Program-made: the position numbers and the translations under genes | Virus record (IMG/VR): IMGVR_UViG_3300009183_004565 | Direction: 5' to 3' (one strand) | From: a virus | Taxonomy: Duplodnaviria > Caudoviricetes | Length of the DNA: 64,000 nucleotides | Part shown: positions 5,830-62,875 of the stretch, one piece after another | How the letters are laid out: each line of letters begins with the position of its first letter | Position numbering within the stretch: the stretch's first letter is position 1 | Notes under the pieces: generated by a model | Database searches by the model: none | What the model saw: the letters and a program-made list of their open reading frames with translations, nothing else | What the model was told of the DNA's origin: nothing

Positions 5830-6139
5830 TAGGATACTGTAATGGGTAGTGAACAGTTGTACTTTGTAATTGGATTCTTGCTAGGCACTATCATCACAGG
5901 ATGTCTGTGTATGATAGGGTTTATCGTGTGGCATGAATGGTTTTATCGACCACCGCAGCAGGAAGAATAGTGTCAGTGTATGTTTGGACATTGGTAGTTT
6001 TTATATATGCTGATGGAGTATGGCGTGATTGGCGCAGCTACAATCGTCTTGAAGAATGTTTAGAAGCAGCTCATGTTATATCGTATCGTAGAGCAGATGT
6101 ACTTGACGTTAAATGTGAGCGTAGAGAAGTAAAATAAGA

Positions 6140-6440
6140 ATTGTTGTAATTCCTTTAAAGCAAAGGCATGTTGGACGGGGTTTCGATACCCCCATCTCCA
6201 CCAGAAGCACATTATGGAGTTACCCGCTACACTACTAAAGGATCGCTACCTTTAGTAATATACAACGTGTGGTAGTGTGTTTCTGATGGGGATGAATTGG
6301 TTTCGACAGCGTGAGATAGTAGAGAAGGCAACACGGTAGGCGATCTCCGTAAAAGAAGCAAAACTCGTAACTGCAAACGATAGTTACTACGCAATGGCCG
6401 CTTGAGCCAAAGCCGGGGGTAGCGCCTTGTTAACCAATAG
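6140..6440 (+). ncRNA. ssrA: circularly permuted (two-piece) tmRNA
   Basis: T-arm and CATCTCC-A-CCA end at 6203; 5' end GGGGATG at 6288 gives a 7-bp acceptor stem with G3.U70; tag frame GCA AAC GAT AGT TAC TAC GCA ATG GCC GCT TGA = ANDSYYAMAA* at 6373-6405; outer ends approximate. Confidence 0.92.
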
Positions 6441-6444
6441 CTAG

Positions 6445-6469
6445 AATAGGACCTTCGGGTCCTATTTTT
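6445..6469 (+). terminator. intrinsic terminator after tmRNA
   Basis: AATAGGACC-TTCG-GGTCCTATT then T-tract. Confidence 0.85.
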
Positions 6470-10786: not shown

Positions 10787-11812
10787 ATGAAGAAGTTTGT
10801 GACATTAGCAGCACTAGTATTTTCTACAGTAGTATCAGCAGCTGATTTAACAGGCGCTGGTGCAACTTTTCCCTACCCAATTTATGCCAAATGGGCAGAA
10901 GCATATAAAGCAGCAACAGGTATAGGACTCAATTATCAATCCATCGGTTCAGGTGGTGGTATTCGTCAAATCAAAGCCAAGACAGTGGACTTTGGTGCCA
11001 GTGATATGCCATTGAAAGTAGAGGAATTAGACAAAGAAGGCTTAATGCAATTCCCCGCAATCATTGGTGGTGTTGTTCCGGTATTCAACCTTGATGGTGT
11101 ACAACCTGGTGAATTGAAACTGACCAGTGATGTAATCGCTAATATTCATCTAGGTAAAATTACCAAATGGAATGATCGAGCAATTGCTGAATTGAATCCT
11201 GGTGTCACACTACCAGCAATCAATATCACTGTTGTGCATCGTGCAGATGGCTCAGGCACAACATTCATTTGGACAAACTATCTGAGCAAAGTAAACGCCG
11301 ACTTTAAGAATACTGTAGGCGAAGGCTCTGCTGTGAAATGGCCAACTGGTGTAGGCGGCAAAGGTAACGAAGGTGTTGCGGCCAACGTTCAACGTGTCAA
11401 AGGCGCTTTTGGTTACGTGGAATATGCCTACGCCAAGAAAAACAAAATTGCGTATGCACAATTGAAAAATCGTGATGGTAACTTTGTACAACCAAGTGAT
11501 GATACATTTAAAGCAGCCGCAGCAGGTGCTGATTGGAACAATGCTCCAGGAATGTATTTGTTACTGACAAACCAAACTGGCAAAGATTCATGGCCAGCAA
11601 CTGGTGCCAGTTTTATCATAATGCACAAGCAACAAGCAGATGCTTTAACTGGTCGTGCTATTCTAAAATTCTTTGATTGGTCGTATAAAAACGGCGCCAA
11701 GATGAGTGAAGATTTGGAATATGTACACATGCCTCAGTCAGTTATCAAGTTAGTTCAAGATAACTGGAAAAAAGAACTCAAAGGACCAGACGGTCAATCA
11801 ATTTGGAAATAA
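10787..11812 (+). CDS. pstS: phosphate ABC transporter substrate-binding protein
   Basis: Signal peptide; TGAGATFPYP, YQSIGSGGG, DFGASD, HRADGSGTT motifs. Confidence 0.97.
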   Translation: MKKFVTLAALVFSTVVSAADLTGAGATFPYPIYAKWAEAYKAATGIGLNYQSIGSGGGIRQIKAKTVDFGASDMPLKVEELDKEGLMQFPAIIGGVVPVFNLDGVQPGELKLTSDVIANIHLGKITKWNDRAIAELNPGVTLPAINITVVHRADGSGTTFIWTNYLSKVNADFKNTVGEGSAVKWPTGVGGKGNEGVAANVQRVKGAFGYVEYAYAKKNKIAYAQLKNRDGNFVQPSDDTFKAAAAGADWNNAPGMYLLLTNQTGKDSWPATGASFIIMHKQQADALTGRAILKFFDWSYKNGAKMSEDLEYVHMPQSVIKLVQDNWKKELKGPDGQSIWK

Positions 11813-21425: not shown

Positions 21426-21454
21426 TTGACCATTAATCAGTATTTTGCTATACT
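21426..21454 (+). promoter_or_regulatory. sigma70-type promoter for the RNA cluster
   Basis: TTGACC-17-TATACT with no downstream ORF/RBS. Confidence 0.7.
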
Positions 21455-21536: not shown

Positions 21537-21607
21537 CGCATCAGGACCTAGTCCTTCTCTGCGACACAACACAAACGGCACACCAGGACTTGGCTCCTTC
21601 TCTGTGC
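21537..21607 (+). ncRNA. tandem duplicated hairpin motif (unknown RNA element)
   Basis: CGCA-TCAGGACCTAGTCCTTCTC-TGCG and GCACA-CCAGGACTTGGCTCCTTCTC-TGTGC. Confidence 0.45.
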
Positions 21608-21622
21608 AGTTTAAAAATTTTT

Positions 21623-21706
21623 GCCTGGGTGGTGTAATGGTAGCCACGCTGGTCTTAGAAGCCAGTGTCGAAAGACGTGCGAGTTCGAGTCTCGCCCCAG
21701 GCACCA
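21623..21706 (+). tRNA. tRNA-Leu(UAG)
   Basis: Cloverleaf, CTGGT-CT TAG AA-GCCAG, variable arm, encoded CCA. Confidence 0.95.
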
Positions 21707-21780
21707 TATTAAAACACATTTCGAACGGTGAAAGTCCGTCCCAAAGATTTATCTAGGATAGTGTGTTTCAATATGGTAGA

Positions 21781-22153
21781 GACACAAGGGAGTGGGTAGG
21801 CCCGCCGCGTTAGCACCACGTAAGGCATCCTTGTTATACTTAATGTTGGAGTAAGGACCAACCTACCAACCAAACGTTCCAGCGTCACTGGATACTCTGA
21901 CCCAGAGGATGAGAAGTGGTATGACAACCACGGGTGGTACCGTTCCAACCGAAAGTGCGCTGGCAATGCGAGAACGGACCCTGTTGTGGAGCGGGTGGAG
22001 GCCGTAGCAATACGGTATAATTACCGCCAGGGGTCGCAGAGCATTTAACTTGAGTTATGGCAAGAGGTCCATAAACGGGAGTGTAACCCGATGGATACAG
22101 AACATAAGTATTCAACGTGAATGAGCCTTGTTTGACCGTAGAGTTTAGGCAAG
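21781..22153 (+). ncRNA. large structured RNA of unknown family
   Basis: ORF-free on the sense strand, GC-richer, at least 10 helices including long-range pairings and a GCAA tetraloop; lies between tRNA-Leu and tRNA-Glu; ends approximate. Confidence 0.7.
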
Positions 22154-22216
22154 AAACACATAACGAAACGGCAGGCGTTAAACAGGATTACAATCGCCTA
22201 GGTAATCAATAATTAT

Positions 22217-22291
22217 GCACCGTTCGTCTATCGGTTAGGACACCCGCCTTTCACGCAGGTAAGAGGAGTTCGATTCTCCTACGGTGTACCA
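22217..22291 (+). tRNA. tRNA-Glu(UUC)
   Basis: Cloverleaf, loop CT TTC AC, one mismatch in the anticodon stem, CCA. Confidence 0.92.
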
Positions 22292-22300
22292 AGTTTTAAA

Positions 22301-22375
22301 GCGGGCGTAACTCAGAGGTAGAGTGTCAGCCTTCCAAGCTGTTCGTCGCAGGTTCGAATCCTGTCGCCCGCTCCA
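22301..22375 (+). tRNA. tRNA-Gly(UCC)
   Basis: Cloverleaf, loop CT TCC AA, CCA. Confidence 0.95.
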
Positions 22376-22384
22376 ATTTCCCAA

Positions 22385-22413
22385 TTGACCATAATTCCTT
22401 TTTATCATATAAT
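22385..22413 (+). promoter_or_regulatory. sigma70-type early promoter (cassette copy)
   Basis: TTGACC-17-TATAAT then AAGGAG and GTG. Confidence 0.8.
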
Positions 22414-60592: not shown

Positions 60593-62875
60593 ATGTTACA
60601 AACCAATCCCGAAATTGATCATGTTGTGTCCGAAGCTACGCTTTTAGCAAAATCTTTCAGTCACGAGTATGTAACACTGGAGCATGTCTTTTTAAGTATG
60701 GTTAGATATGATCCATTTAAAGATTTCATTGTCAGTTACGGTGCCGATGTTGAGGGTCTAGATGCAGACCTTGATGCTTATCTTGGTGCACAAGACTTGT
60801 TGGTAGTAAACGATTCTGATCCTAAAAAAACACATGCCTTAGAGCGTGTTTTTAATCGTGCATTCACCCAGGTACTTTTTAGTTCCAGAACCCATGTACA
60901 AATGATGGATTTATTTCTAAGTATCCATGCAGAAACTAGTAGCTATGCACATTACTTTATGGTCAAGTACAATCTTGATCGTGCAAAGCTTGTTGAAATG
61001 TACAATAAAAGTTATAAATCTGAAGCAGGTAAAGCTGTAGCAAGTGCAAGTCAAGCAGATAAGATTCTTGAACACTACTGTGACAACTTAAACAAAAAAG
61101 CCGAAGAGGGTAATATAGATCCGGTTATCGGAAGAGAAAACGAAACTAACGAAATTGTTGAAACTTTAGCACGTCGTAACAAATCAAATGTACTAATGAT
61201 TGGCGATCCAGGTGTTGGTAAAACAGCAATTGCCGAAGGATTAGCTCTAGCTATTGTTCTCAAAACAGTGCCAGAATATCTACTAGACTATACAGTATAC
61301 AATCTTGATATCAGCAGCTTGTTGGCAGGTAGTAAGTACCGCGGCGACTTTGAAGAAAAGATACACGAAATACTTGCAGCACTTAATGTTAAAGGCAAGT
61401 CAATACTGTTCATTGACGAAGCACATCAAATGCGCGGTGCAGGTGCAGGAAGTCAAAATAGTGTAGACTTTAGTAATATAATTAAACCTGCACTAAGCAA
61501 AGGTAAAATTAAAGTTATTGCTAGTACTACATGGGAAGAATATACGCAGAGTTTTGAAAAGGATCGTGCATTAATGCGACGCTTTCAACGTATTACTATC
61601 GACGAACCAAGTCCAGTAATAGCCAAAGAAATTTTATACGGATTACGTCTAAATTTTGAAAAGTTTCATGACGGTACTATTACCGACGATGCTATTGATG
61701 CAGCAGTTGAGCTCAGTGTGCGTTATCAAACAGATAAAAAACTCCCAGATAAGGCAATTGATCTTATTGATGCTTCTTGTGCCAAGTTAAAAATTAAAGG
61801 TACAGCATGGATTGTGGATCGTGCTGTTATCATTAACACTATCAGTAGACTTACTAGAATTCCTGTAGAACAGATTGGTAATACTGAAGGCGCAAAAGGA
61901 ATTGAAGGTCTAGAAGCAAATGTCAAAGATCGACTGTACGGACAAGATGCTGCTGTAGATACTGTGCTAGAAAAAATCTATGTTAGCCGTGCAGGATTGA
62001 AATCATTGAGTAAGCCAATTGGTAACTTCTTGTTCTTGGGTCCAACTGGTACTGGTAAAACAGAACTAGCAAAGTTACTGGCAGAAAATCTTGGCATGAA
62101 ACTGTTACGTTACGATATGAGTGAATATCAAGAACGTCATACTGTTGCTAAACTAATTGGTGCTCCTCCAGGCTATGTGGGCTACGAAGATGGCAACTTG
62201 GGTGGTGGGTTACTGATCAGTGATATTGAAAAGAATCCAAACTGTATTATACTAATGGACGAAATTGAAAAAGCTCATCCTGATGTAAGCAACATCTTAC
62301 TGCAAATGATGGATGAAGGAACTATTACCAGCAGTAACGGTAAGAAAGCCGACTGTCGCAATGCTATTGTTATTCTAACCAGTAATCTTGGTGCTGCGGA
62401 TAACGAACGTAACACAATTGGTTTTACCAAAGAACTGCAGAAATCCGGCGAAGATGACAAAGCAGTTAAAGACTTCTTTAAACCTGAATTTCGTAATCGT
62501 TTAGATGGCATTGTCAAGTTTGCCAAACTTGATGATCTAAGTATGCGTAAGATTGTTGGCAAGTTTATTGGTGAACTAAACGATTTACTACTAGAAAAAC
62601 AATTACGTGTTAGACTAACTGAAGCTGCAGTAGACGAATTGGTTACTAAAGGGTTTGATCCCAAGATGGGTGCTCGTCCATTGCAACGAAAGATCAATGA
62701 CTTAATTAAAGTACCTCTAAGTAAAAAGATCTTGTTTGACAAAATTCCTAGTAACAGTATAATAGTAGTAGGTTTTGTCGATGATAAGTTTGATTTTCAA
62801 ATTATAGCTTCGGCTGATACCACATATAGAATAGACGAAAATGGATATATCCTTTTGGAAGAGCCTATCATCTGA
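60593..62875 (+). CDS. clpA: ClpA-like AAA+ unfoldase
   Basis: Clp-N domain, GDPGVGKT and GPTGTGKT, IGAPPGYVG, FKPEFRNRLD; no ClpB middle domain; IGF-like IGFT loop. Confidence 0.92.
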   Translation: MLQTNPEIDHVVSEATLLAKSFSHEYVTLEHVFLSMVRYDPFKDFIVSYGADVEGLDADLDAYLGAQDLLVVNDSDPKKTHALERVFNRAFTQVLFSSRTHVQMMDLFLSIHAETSSYAHYFMVKYNLDRAKLVEMYNKSYKSEAGKAVASASQADKILEHYCDNLNKKAEEGNIDPVIGRENETNEIVETLARRNKSNVLMIGDPGVGKTAIAEGLALAIVLKTVPEYLLDYTVYNLDISSLLAGSKYRGDFEEKIHEILAALNVKGKSILFIDEAHQMRGAGAGSQNSVDFSNIIKPALSKGKIKVIASTTWEEYTQSFEKDRALMRRFQRITIDEPSPVIAKEILYGLRLNFEKFHDGTITDDAIDAAVELSVRYQTDKKLPDKAIDLIDASCAKLKIKGTAWIVDRAVIINTISRLTRIPVEQIGNTEGAKGIEGLEANVKDRLYGQDAAVDTVLEKIYVSRAGLKSLSKPIGNFLFLGPTGTGKTELAKLLAENLGMKLLRYDMSEYQERHTVAKLIGAPPGYVGYEDGNLGGGLLISDIEKNPNCIILMDEIEKAHPDVSNILLQMMDEGTITSSNGKKADCRNAIVILTSNLGAADNERNTIGFTKELQKSGEDDKAVKDFFKPEFRNRLDGIVKFAKLDDLSMRKIVGKFIGELNDLLLEKQLRVRLTEAAVDELVTKGFDPKMGARPLQRKINDLIKVPLSKKILFDKIPSNSIIVVGFVDDKFDFQIIASADTTYRIDENGYILLEEPII

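What the first reader, a model, noticed from the sequence alone, without database searches (positions are those of the whole stretch)
21781..22153. ~370-nt highly structured non-coding RNA embedded in the tRNA cluster
Seen: an ORF-free, GC-richer segment between tRNA-Leu and tRNA-Glu with many helices. These include ACAAGGG/TCCTTGT (21784-90/21828-34), GGTAGG/CCTACC (21795-800/21862-67, crossing the first helix, so a possible pseudoknot), GTTGG/CCAAC, TCCAG/CTGGA, long-range CTCTGACCC/GGGTCGCAGAG (21895-903/22031-41), GTGGT/ACCAC, CCGTTC/GAACGG, GCCGTA-GCAA-TACGGT, and a closing hairpin at 22127-22153. Established: GOLLD and ROOL are large ncRNAs found in phages, often near tRNAs, with unknown function. 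Inference: this is a member or fragment of such a class, or a new one. I cannot assign the family by eye.
Basis: partly seen in the sequence, partly recalled or inferred. Interest (0 to 1): 0.82.

Follow-up and report, generated by a model that had tools for sequence, protein, structure and literature searches.

The report
Three phage RNAs, not one
The flagged 370 bases are three separate folded RNA modules inside a phage tRNA operon; the middle one is a compact member of a widespread, uncatalogued family of about 200-base RNAs that large environmental phages carry once per genome among their tRNA genes, and its job is still unknown.

Summary
The region is real, non-coding, GC-rich (about 50% against 36%) and has no Rfam 15 match even at E<=10. 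It is not one 370-nt RNA.

Relatives show three separable modules:
- Module A (21774-21868).
- A conserved core (21871-22046).

The core belongs to a family found in at least 119 IMG/VR phage contigs. I found none in 50,697 GenBank phage records, and none among the 54 bacterial-genome matches to its 20-base signature, which are all chance.

Across 92 sequences, 45 base pairs are 96% canonical and 33 show compensatory changes. The fold has eight helices, an L1-L3 kissing loop and an L2 pseudoknot.

The RNA lies on the tRNA strand. It abuts the CCA of an upstream tRNA in 45 of 94 loci and a downstream tRNA in 27. Host tRNA-processing enzymes therefore probably cut it out as a stable RNA.

The window's copy is the shortest form (176 nt). 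It is a recombinant, and two pairs in P4 are broken.

The function is unknown. My best guess is a trans-acting binder linked to tRNA or translation. An invariant UGGUA between two helices resembles the T-box bulge that binds the tRNA 3' end.

This scan has already met the same family on other phage DNA (16 genomes).

The parts
21426..21454 (+). Sigma-70-like promoter (TTGACC-17-TATACT, with TG) that probably drives the whole RNA operon
   Evidence: The next promoter-like site on this strand is at 22385-22413, and there is no + strand terminator between them. This is a consensus match only.
21623..21706 (+). tRNA-Leu(UAG) with encoded CCA
21703..21779 (+). Closing-helix ('linker') hairpin. CCAUAUUAAAACACAUU pairs with UAGUGUGUUUCAAUAUGG, so the tRNA's CCA lies inside the stem.
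   Evidence: Read. The same element follows tRNAs in L001, L004, L106 and others. L002 carries compensatory changes. After core RNAs the stem reads AGCAUAUU/AAUAUGCU.
21774..21868 (+). Module A: a tRNA-sized branched element (stem UGGUAG/CUACCA, arm ACAAGG/CCUUGU with a variable interior, hairpin GUUGG/CCAAC). It is an independent module.
   Evidence: It is 95.7% identical in L118, where it sits about 690 nt from the core and directly before tRNA-Glu. It is partly conserved in L001 and L004. No covariation is available, and the MFE z-score is 0.02.
21871..22046 (+). Core RNA: the 176-nt, shortest-form member of the uncatalogued ~200-nt phage tRNA-array RNA family
   Evidence: nhmmer E=3.9e-46 against the family profile, and the only hit in the window. 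Alignments A1 and A2. Covariation.
21878..21892 (+). P1 hairpin UCCAG/CUGGA. Its loop GUCA (21884-21887) kisses the P3 loop.
   Evidence: All 5 pairs show compensatory changes and 99% are canonical. For the kissing loop, pairs 14-55, 15-54 and 16-53 covary.
21895..21907 (+). P2 hairpin CUCU/AGAG with the invariant loop GACCC (21899-21903)
   Evidence: The loop ACCC pairs with GGGU at 21932-21935. L068 (GUCC/GGAC) and L006 show changes on both sides.
21916..21931 (+). P3 hairpin GUGGU/ACCAC. Its loop UGAC (21922-21925) is the partner of the P1 loop.
21932..21939 (+). Invariant GGGUGGUA: GGG(U) is the pseudoknot strand, and UGGUA is an unpaired joint between the pseudoknot helix and P4
   Evidence: identical in nearly all members. 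The likeness to the T-box bulge UGGN next to helix A1 (PMC7583486) is inference.
21940..21957 (+). P4 hairpin. In this window two of its five pairs are broken (C.U and G.G).
   Evidence: In the family P4 is 97% canonical and all 5 pairs covary. The window's 5' strand matches L002 and its 3' strand matches L001, which marks a recombination joint in the loop.
21958..21976 (+). Invariant CGC-UGGCAAU-GCG hairpin (P5, a 7-nt T-loop-like loop) followed by AGAACG
   Evidence: Invariant in 63 of 63 sequences, but part of this stretch is the search pattern itself, so the invariance is biased. The pairing cannot be tested by covariation.
21977..22035 (+). 3' domain: P6 (21977-21982 with 22030-22035), P7 (21991-21994 with 22024-22027), P8 (22001-22016, capped by GCAA), and the joints UGGAGG and UAUAAUUA
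   Evidence: In most relatives P8 carries 30-90 extra nt with a tandem-GA (k-turn-like) internal loop.
22036..22046 (+). Invariant single-stranded 3' tail GCAGAGCAUUU
   Evidence: In relatives it is followed at 0-7 nt by a tRNA, or by a closing helix that pairs with its AGCAU.
22047..22207 (+). Module B: a second, rare structured RNA (about 160 nt) with three covarying hairpins
   Evidence: It has 7 members: the window, L002, L034, L036, L050, L174 and L175. 10 of 39 predicted pairs show compensatory changes. Its position relative to the core varies.
22217..22375 (+). tRNA-Glu(UUC) and tRNA-Gly(UCC), the end of the operon

Best explanation
Shown:
- The stretch is part of one tRNA operon: promoter-like site, tRNA-Leu, closing hairpin, module A, core, module B, tRNA-Glu, tRNA-Gly.
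- It holds three independent RNA modules.
- The central 176 nt (21871-22046) is a member of a large, uncatalogued family of about 200-nt RNAs. Big environmental tailed phages carry it once per genome inside their tRNA arrays.
- The fold is compact. Three 5' hairpins are tied together by an L1-L3 kissing loop and an L2 pseudoknot. Then come two more hairpins and a stacked P6-P7-P8 arm. Long invariant unpaired joints lie between them.

Inferred:
- The RNA is punched out of the array transcript by the host's tRNA-maturation enzymes. RNase P makes its 3' end where a tRNA follows. The nucleases that trim the upstream tRNA to CCA, or that cut the closing helix, make the other ends.
- It then accumulates as a stable RNA that acts in trans.

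Most likely role (weakly supported): a scaffold or decoy that binds a conserved partner from the tRNA or translation world. It may dock a tRNA 3' ACCA end on the invariant UGGUA that sits between the pseudoknot helix and P4, as T-box and RNase P RNAs do.

The window's copy is a recombinant minimal form with a weakened P4.
For: Family and structure:
- At least 119 IMG/VR loci match, all with full-length profile hits.
- 26 of 33 RNAalifold pairs are compensatory.
- 45 modelled pairs are 96% canonical over 92 sequences, and 33 are compensatory. Partners slid by 1-2 columns give about 40%.
- Kissing-loop and pseudoknot covariation.

Context:
- 45 of 94 loci have the upstream tRNA's CCA directly before the RNA. 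27 have a tRNA within 7 nt after it, and 24 have both.
- All 967 tRNAs within 3 kb lie on the same strand.
- Each of five 93-100% complete genomes of 320-357 kb has exactly one copy.

3' end handled like a tRNA end: the closing helix that pairs with CCAUAUU after tRNAs pairs with AGCAUAUU after this RNA, and its far strand changes to match (AAUAUGCU).

Module independence.

No conserved protein-gene neighbour: the commonest cluster occurs in 23 of the 95 loci examined. This fits an RNA that works with host factors or alone.

T-box parallel: UGGN lies immediately next to a helix and pairs with NCCA (PMC7583486). RNase P L15 pairs with the tRNA 3' end (PMC4919913).
Against: - Processing and stability are therefore inferred from gene layout only.
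- Single-sequence folding energy is not better than shuffles.
- About a quarter of loci have no tRNA within 400 nt, so tRNA-coupled processing cannot be the only route.
- The tRNA-end docking idea rests on an 8-nt likeness. One member (L068) lacks the free GGU. The discriminators of the upstream tRNAs are mixed (A, G, U) while UGGU does not vary.
- The invariance of P5 is partly an artefact of the search pattern.
- The window's copy has two broken pairs in P4 and could be impaired.
Confidence: 0.55

Rival explanations
1. One single large ornate RNA of about 370-500 nt, of the GOLLD/ROOL type, spans the whole spacer.
For: The modules are contiguous and co-transcribed here. L036 and L034 keep the core-module B order. 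There is no internal promoter or terminator.
Against: The modules shuffle. Module B lies upstream of the core in L002 and L050, and no core was found in the stretch held for L174 and L175. Module A is 690 nt from the core in L118. Most family members have tRNAs touching both ends of the core alone. There is no GOLLD or ROOL hit at E<=10.
Confidence: 0.05
2. A purely cis-acting processing or spacing element. The fold only insulates neighbouring tRNAs or guides nucleases, and the excised RNA has no job of its own.
For: It always lies in tRNA arrays on the tRNA strand, often with zero-nt spacers. Closing helices in these arrays show that the phages invest in processing signals.
Against: An eight-helix fold with a kissing loop, a pseudoknot and about 60 near-invariant unpaired positions is far more than a spacer needs. 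There is only one copy per genome although arrays hold 10-30 tRNAs. Some members lie far from any tRNA.
Confidence: 0.15
3. A catalytic RNA, for example one that cuts at its own 5' boundary right after the tRNA's CCA, or that acts on tRNAs.
For: Conservation starts sharply at (A)GAACG immediately after CCA in 45 loci. The 5' domain is knotted and has invariant joints, as in small ribozymes.
Against: There is no match to any ribozyme family in Rfam. Half of the members have no tRNA directly upstream. Cutting that left a cyclic phosphate would leave the tRNA unusable.
Confidence: 0.07
4. The family is functional, but this window's copy is a decaying or crippled recombinant.
For: P4 has C.U and G.G where relatives pair. 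The 5' 80 nt match L002 (93.8%) and the 3' 96 nt match L001 (100%). P8 is reduced to a tetraloop hairpin.
Against: All other 40 modelled pairs and all invariant joints are intact. The same short P8 is shared with L001-L005, so it is a lineage trait and not damage. P4 keeps three pairs.
Confidence: 0.1
5. A protein-coding gene on the minus strand (the 85-aa and 76-aa ORFs).
For: ORFs 21709-21966 and 21885-22115 on the minus strand. 'Conserved' ORF clusters overlap the RNA in relatives.
Against: Substitutions are compensatory in helices. Family lengths are spread evenly over the classes modulo 3 (34/34/27). No frame is open in most members. The start codons are TTG, and the ORFs run antisense to an all-plus-strand operon.
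Confidence: 0.01

Closest known systems
T4 stable RNAs species 1 and 2 (rnaC, rnaD), from my own knowledge of the T4 tRNA cluster
   Same: Non-tRNA stable RNAs encoded inside a phage tRNA cluster, co-transcribed with the tRNAs and released by the tRNA-processing machinery. Their function is still unknown.
   Different: There is no detectable sequence likeness: blastn of the family against 50,697 phage records, which should include T4-like phages, found nothing even at E<=10. This family is larger, has a pseudoknot and a kissing loop, and is so far known only from uncultured phages.
GOLLD (RF02032) and ROOL RNAs
   Same: Elaborately folded RNAs associated with phages or prophages, often beside tRNA genes, with no known function (PMC12286853, listed).
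   Different: There is no covariance-model match at E<=10. This RNA is about 200 nt against roughly 600-800. It has a different helix plan, and no evidence of self-assembly was obtained here.
T-box discriminator (antiterminator bulge UGGNACC) and the RNase P L15 loop
   Same: An invariant UGGUA lies directly 3' of a short G-rich helix strand (GGG paired to CCC) and 5' of the next helix. [quoted passage not shown] RNase P likewise pairs GGU with the tRNA 3' end (PMC4919913). In the window the match even reads GGGUGGUACCG.
   Different: This is a local likeness only. There is no T-box or RNase P model hit, and no Stem I, specifier, terminator or P4. The helix order differs, and the 'ACC' of the window is paired in P4 and absent in most members.
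Intervening segment of two-piece (permuted) tmRNA genes and the shared closing helix of phage tRNA arrays
   Same: In relatives it also follows the core RNA.
   Different: It is a flanking processing element, not part of the core RNA. In this window the core is not enclosed by such a helix.

Membership tests
Uncatalogued ~200-nt phage tRNA-array RNA family (this scan, e.g. e1-5342656) | Full-length sequence-profile match | tested here: met
   nhmmer E=3.9e-46, profile positions 2-205, window 21873-22046
Uncatalogued ~200-nt phage tRNA-array RNA family (this scan, e.g. e1-5342656) | Helices P1-P8, the L1-L3 kissing loop and the L2 pseudoknot can all form | tested here: met
   43 of 45 modelled pairs are canonical in the window. 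The exceptions are two pairs in P4.
Uncatalogued ~200-nt phage tRNA-array RNA family (this scan, e.g. e1-5342656) | Invariant joints GAUGAGAAG, GGGUGGUA, CGCUGGCAAUGCGAGAACGG, UAUAAUUA and GCAGAGCAUU | tested here: met
   All are present in the window.
Uncatalogued ~200-nt phage tRNA-array RNA family (this scan, e.g. e1-5342656) | Lies in a tRNA array on the tRNA strand, with a single copy | tested here: met
   It lies between tRNA-Leu and tRNA-Glu on the + strand, with one hit in 64 kb. It does not abut the tRNAs directly (164 and 170 nt).
GOLLD (RF02032) / ROOL | Match to the family covariance model | tested here: not met
   No hit at the gathering threshold or at E<=10
Bacterial RNase P RNA (RF00010/RF00011) | Covariance-model match, and a long-range P4 helix between the CR-I-like and CR-V-like strands | tested here: not met
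   No hit at E<=10. The GAGAAGU stretch is followed by a local hairpin (P3) that covaries with its neighbour, not with the 3' tail.
Group I intron (RF00028) | P3-P7 pseudoknot topology with the P4-P6 domain, and a model match | tested here: not met
   No hit. P6, P7 and P8 are nested rather than knotted, and the flanking tRNAs are complete.
T-box riboswitch (RF00230) | Stem I with a specifier, discriminator helices A1 and A2 with a 7-nt UGGNACC bulge, and a competing terminator | tested here: not met
   No model hit at E<=10. Only the GGG-UGGUA element resembles it (PMC7583486).
tRNA / tmRNA / tRNA-like | Cloverleaf, or acceptor and T arm, detected by ARAGORN or Rfam | tested here: not met
   No call inside 21707-22216

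The most novel reading that the evidence does not exclude
The core RNA is a new natural tRNA-binding RNA, which would join the three already known (RNase P, T-box leaders and the ribosomal L1 stalk). It would clamp a tRNA by pairing the 3' ACCA end with the invariant UGGU (21935-21938), stacked on the L2 pseudoknot helix, and perhaps by stacking a T-loop-like hairpin (P5) on the elbow. Large phages would then use it to sense, sequester or protect uncharged tRNAs during infection. Possible purposes are blunting the host's starvation alarm or shielding tRNAs from defence nucleases.
Probability: 0.12. Interest if true: 0.9.

Novelty: new variant of a known kind. Interest (0 to 1): 0.6.

Why it matters
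Phage tRNA clusters have been known for fifty years to hold extra stable RNAs whose function is unknown. GOLLD and ROOL recently showed that such RNAs can be structurally extraordinary.

This family is a third, smaller class, and it stands out in several ways:
- It is abundant: at least 119 viral contigs, with one copy in each complete jumbo-phage genome checked.
- Its fold is as constrained as a riboswitch or ribozyme.
- It is absent from Rfam, from cultured phages, and from every bacterial-genome locus that matched its signature.

The window supplies the shortest natural version (176 nt, with P8 reduced to a GNRA hairpin). That makes it a practical construct for structure probing, cryo-EM or crystallography, and binding assays.

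If the T-box-like UGGUA site does bind tRNA ends, this would be a new natural RNA 'ruler' for tRNA and a new layer of phage control over host translation.

Tried and rejected
- Rfam at the gathering threshold and at E<=10, on the window and on a typical member: only tRNAs, tmRNA and a meaningless miRNA hit.
- blastn against GenBank phages with the spacer, a typical member, and its most conserved 137 nt at E<=10: only tRNA matches or none.
- Scan of 185,579 bacterial and archaeal genomes with the 20-mer: 54 hits, all chance. Only the 20-mer matches; one lies beside glycine riboswitches and none is in RNase P.
- Loci related to the neighbouring GH113-like protein: none.
- No whole genome is held for the window.
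- Neighbour-gene clustering found no conserved partner. The commonest were an RNaseH-like protein, a metallophosphatase, a DD-carboxypeptidase, a dCMP deaminase and a 5'-3' exonuclease, each in 23 or fewer of the 95 loci examined.
Covariation was therefore counted with RNAalifold and my own script instead of the count of structure pairs.
- My first pattern for module A had one N too many and found nothing, so that result is uninformative.
- Supplementary tables of PMC10690425 (10,006 candidate viral structured RNAs) are not held, so I could not check whether this family is among them.
- Literature searches found no description of it.
- Considered and rejected on topology: RNase P (CR-I, L15 and CR-V-like strings in the right order but no P4) and group I intron (no P3-P7 knot).
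- Considered and rejected on motifs read by eye: HDV-like or hammerhead ribozymes and SRP RNA.
Position 22026 covaries with 21992 (C-G, U-A, A-U), not with the invariant U at 21935.

Full report
**What is at the coordinates.** The 510-nt gap between tRNA-Leu(UAG) (21623-21706) and tRNA-Glu(UUC) (22217-22291) is GC-rich, about 0.50 against 0.33-0.39 nearby. It lies in a phage-like window. That window also carries eight tRNAs, a permuted beta-proteobacterial-type tmRNA gene (6089-6469) and phage structural and auxiliary genes. A sigma-70-like site at 21426-21454 precedes the gap. The next one on this strand is at 22385-22413, and there is no + strand terminator between them. One transcript should therefore cover tRNA-Leu, the gap, tRNA-Glu and tRNA-Gly. 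Rfam 15 gives nothing in the gap at the gathering threshold or at E<=10. By another (covariation) it passes strongly.

**Finding relatives.** Cultured phages share only the tRNAs. A 20-mer from the GNRA hairpin hit five IMG/VR contigs. Aligning them showed a sharply bounded conserved block, window 21871-22046, with variable flanks. All 119 give full-length hits to a profile built from the block, and the window has exactly one hit (E=3.9e-46). The same pattern hit 54 bacterial genome contigs, but there only the 20-mer itself matches. About that many hits are expected by chance in 6e11 bases, so I saw no bacterial or prophage member. No GenBank phage record matches a typical member, even at E<=10. 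Family length is mostly 200-208 nt, with a range of 176-271. The window's 176 nt ties for the shortest. Many carrier contigs exceed 100 kb, and several are 320-357 kb. In five such genomes, 93-100% complete, there is exactly one copy each. Two extra two-mismatch pattern hits proved to be chance.

**Structure of the core.** RNAalifold on 63 diverse members predicts 33 pairs, and 26 of them have compensatory changes. A mutual-information scan over 92 sequences recovered the same helices and added tertiary pairs. My model has 45 pairs:
- P1: 21878-82 with 21888-92.
- P2: 21895-98 with 21904-07.
- P3: 21916-20 with 21927-31.
- P4: 21940-44 with 21953-57.
- P5: 21958-60 with 21968-70.
- P6: 21977-82 with 22030-35.
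- P7: 21991-94 with 22024-27.
- P8: 22001-05 with 22012-16.
- A four-pair kissing interaction between the P1 loop (GUCA, 21884-87) and the P3 loop (UGAC, 21922-25).
- A four-pair pseudoknot between the P2 loop (ACCC, 21900-03) and GGGU (21932-35).

Over 92 sequences these pairs are 96% canonical, and 33 pairs show double compensatory changes. Partners slid by one or two columns give 36-43%. The kissing loop changes in step: GUCA/UGAC, AUCA/UGAU, UGUC/GACA, GUUA/UGAC and UAACG/CGUUA. One subgroup of about eight sequences has GUAGCA in both loops and does not fit simple pairing. The pseudoknot is almost invariant. Two members change both sides (L068 GUCC/GGAC; L006 with G-C plus a bulge) and none contradicts it.

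**What cannot be tested in the core.** P5 and the long joints are invariant, so their pairing cannot be tested. The joints are GAUGAGAAG, GGGUGGUA, AGAACG, UGGAGG, UAUAAUUA and GCAGAGCAUUU. Part of P5's invariance is imposed by my search pattern. Most members extend P8 by 30-90 nt through an internal loop with tandem G.A pairs (UGAUG opposite UGAUG). That loop looks like a k-turn, which is inference. A subgroup has a different, larger P8 domain, and four members carry an extra hairpin between GGGUGGU and P4. The region is not coding. Lengths fall 34/34/27 over the three classes modulo 3, and no single frame is open across the family.

Three of the nine are right (P1, P3, P8). Two lie in module A and are conserved but untested. 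The long-range CTCTGACCC/GGGTCGCAGAG helix is wrong. Covariation splits it into the local P2, the pseudoknot and P6. The 3' CAGAG is an invariant tail that does not follow the changes in CUCU. CCGTTC/GAACGG is also not supported.

**The window's copy is a mosaic.** Positions 1-80 of the core are 93.8% identical to L002 and 86% identical to L001. Positions 81-176 are 100% identical to L001 and L004. The joint falls in the P4 loop. It combines an L002-type 5' strand (CCGUU) with an L001-type 3' strand (AAGUG), which leaves C.U and G.G where both parents pair. Everything else is intact.

**Three modules, not one RNA.**
- Module A (21774-21868) recurs at 95.7% identity in L118. There it sits about 690 nt from that phage's core, directly before a tRNA-Glu. 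It is partly conserved in L001 and L004, with a different interior.
- Module B (22047-22207) recurs after the core in L034 and L036. It lies upstream of the core in L002 and L050, and it appears with no core in the stretch held for L174 and L175.
- Module B has seven members. Three of its hairpins covary, and 10 of 39 predicted pairs have compensatory changes. In L002 it is fused to a T-arm-like end with CCA.

**Genomic grammar.** In 94 loci the upstream tRNA's CCA is followed at once by the RNA's (A)GAACG in 45. A tRNA starts within 7 nt of the tail in 27, and both are true in 24. Seventy loci have a tRNA within 400 nt. All 967 tRNAs within 3 kb are on the RNA's strand. In several loci the tail is followed by the same closing helix that follows tRNAs. 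After a tRNA this helix pairs CCAUAUU with AAUAUGG. After the core it pairs AGCAUAUU with AAUAUGCU. That is a compensatory change, and it puts the RNA's last bases inside the processing stem, just like a tRNA's CCA. The hairpin at 21703-21779 is of this kind. No protein family is a constant neighbour.

**How it most likely works.**
- Shown: a conserved, intricately folded, single-copy RNA gene embedded in tRNA operons.
- Inferred with fair confidence: host tRNA-maturation nucleases release it, and it accumulates as a stable RNA. T4's species 1 and 2 RNAs behave this way (my own knowledge).
- The role is open. The density of invariant unpaired nucleotides argues for a specific partner or chemistry rather than a spacer.
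- One concrete lead: GGG paired to the P2 loop is followed directly by an unpaired, invariant UGGUA and then by P4. [quoted passage not shown] RNase P L15 also pairs with the tRNA 3' end, and reviewers have predicted further tRNA 'rulers' in viral transcriptomes (PMC4919913).
- A second UGGA(R) joint lies between P7 and P8.
- I rate tRNA-end docking at roughly one in eight. It rests on a short motif, one member lacks it, and there is no covariation with the neighbouring tRNAs' discriminators.

**Comparison and novelty.** This is not GOLLD, ROOL, RNase P, a group I intron, a T-box or a tRNA-like RNA by model or by topology. In kind it resembles the stable RNAs of phage tRNA clusters. In family it is undescribed in Rfam 15 and in the papers I could search. 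This scan has already flagged the same family in 16 other genomes, and one follow-up reached the same 'real, uncatalogued, function unknown' verdict. What this window adds:
- The separation into three modules.
- The kissing loop and the pseudoknot.
- The compensatory closing helix at the RNA's 3' end.
- The minimal 176-nt form.
- The recombinant P4.

No expression data could be obtained.

Noticed in passing
window 6089-6469: A circularly permuted (two-piece) tmRNA gene of the beta-proteobacterial type (156.7 bits). It suggests a betaproteobacterial host. L001 and L002 carry permuted tmRNAs too.
   Followed up: partly
window 21703-21779; L011, L076, L115, L067 downstream of their core RNAs: The closing helix that starts at a tRNA's CCA (CCAUAUU/AAUAUGG) also follows the core RNA, with a matching change (AGCAUAUU/AAUAUGCU). 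The stem therefore always includes the last bases of whatever RNA precedes it. Its 3' arm recurs many times per array.
   Followed up: partly
window 21538-21606: Two tandem copies of a hairpin-plus-tail motif of about 25 nt (CAGGACCUAGUCCUUCUCUGCG and CAGGACUUGGCUCCUUCUCUGUG) lie between the promoter-like site and tRNA-Leu.
   Followed up: no
window 21940-21957: A recombination joint lies inside the P4 loop of the core RNA. The 5' part is L002-like and the 3' part is identical to L001/L004, which leaves two mismatched pairs.
   Followed up: yes
window 22047-22207; L002 2221-2395; L174 about 806-972; L175 800-972 (minus strand): Module B is a small family of its own (7 members) with covarying hairpins and an invariant GGCAAGAAACACAUAA. 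In L002 it ends in a T-arm-like sequence plus CCA, as if fused to the 3' half of a tRNA.
   Followed up: partly
L018, L027, L028, L033, L051, L066, L113, L008 (core P8 region): A subgroup of the family replaces the k-turn-type P8 with a larger, different domain (CCUGCUGAGGGACCGGAAGCCGAUGGG...AACCAAC). In several of these members both the P1 and P3 loops read GUAGCA.
   Followed up: no
L007, L014, L040, L056 (between GGGUGGU and P4): Four members carry an extra hairpin of 30-50 nt, inserted exactly after the invariant GGGUGGU.
   Followed up: no
window 10787-11812 and 60593-62875: A PstS-like phosphate-transporter subunit (phrog_5385, E=1e-64) and a ClpA/B-like ATP-dependent protease (phrog_4871, E=1e-237). 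These are auxiliary genes typical of large aquatic phages.
   Followed up: no
Genome-contig loci L120-L173: All 54 bacterial hits to the 18-specified-base pattern are chance matches. This is a reminder that such patterns need profile confirmation in a collection of 6e11 bases.
   Followed up: yes
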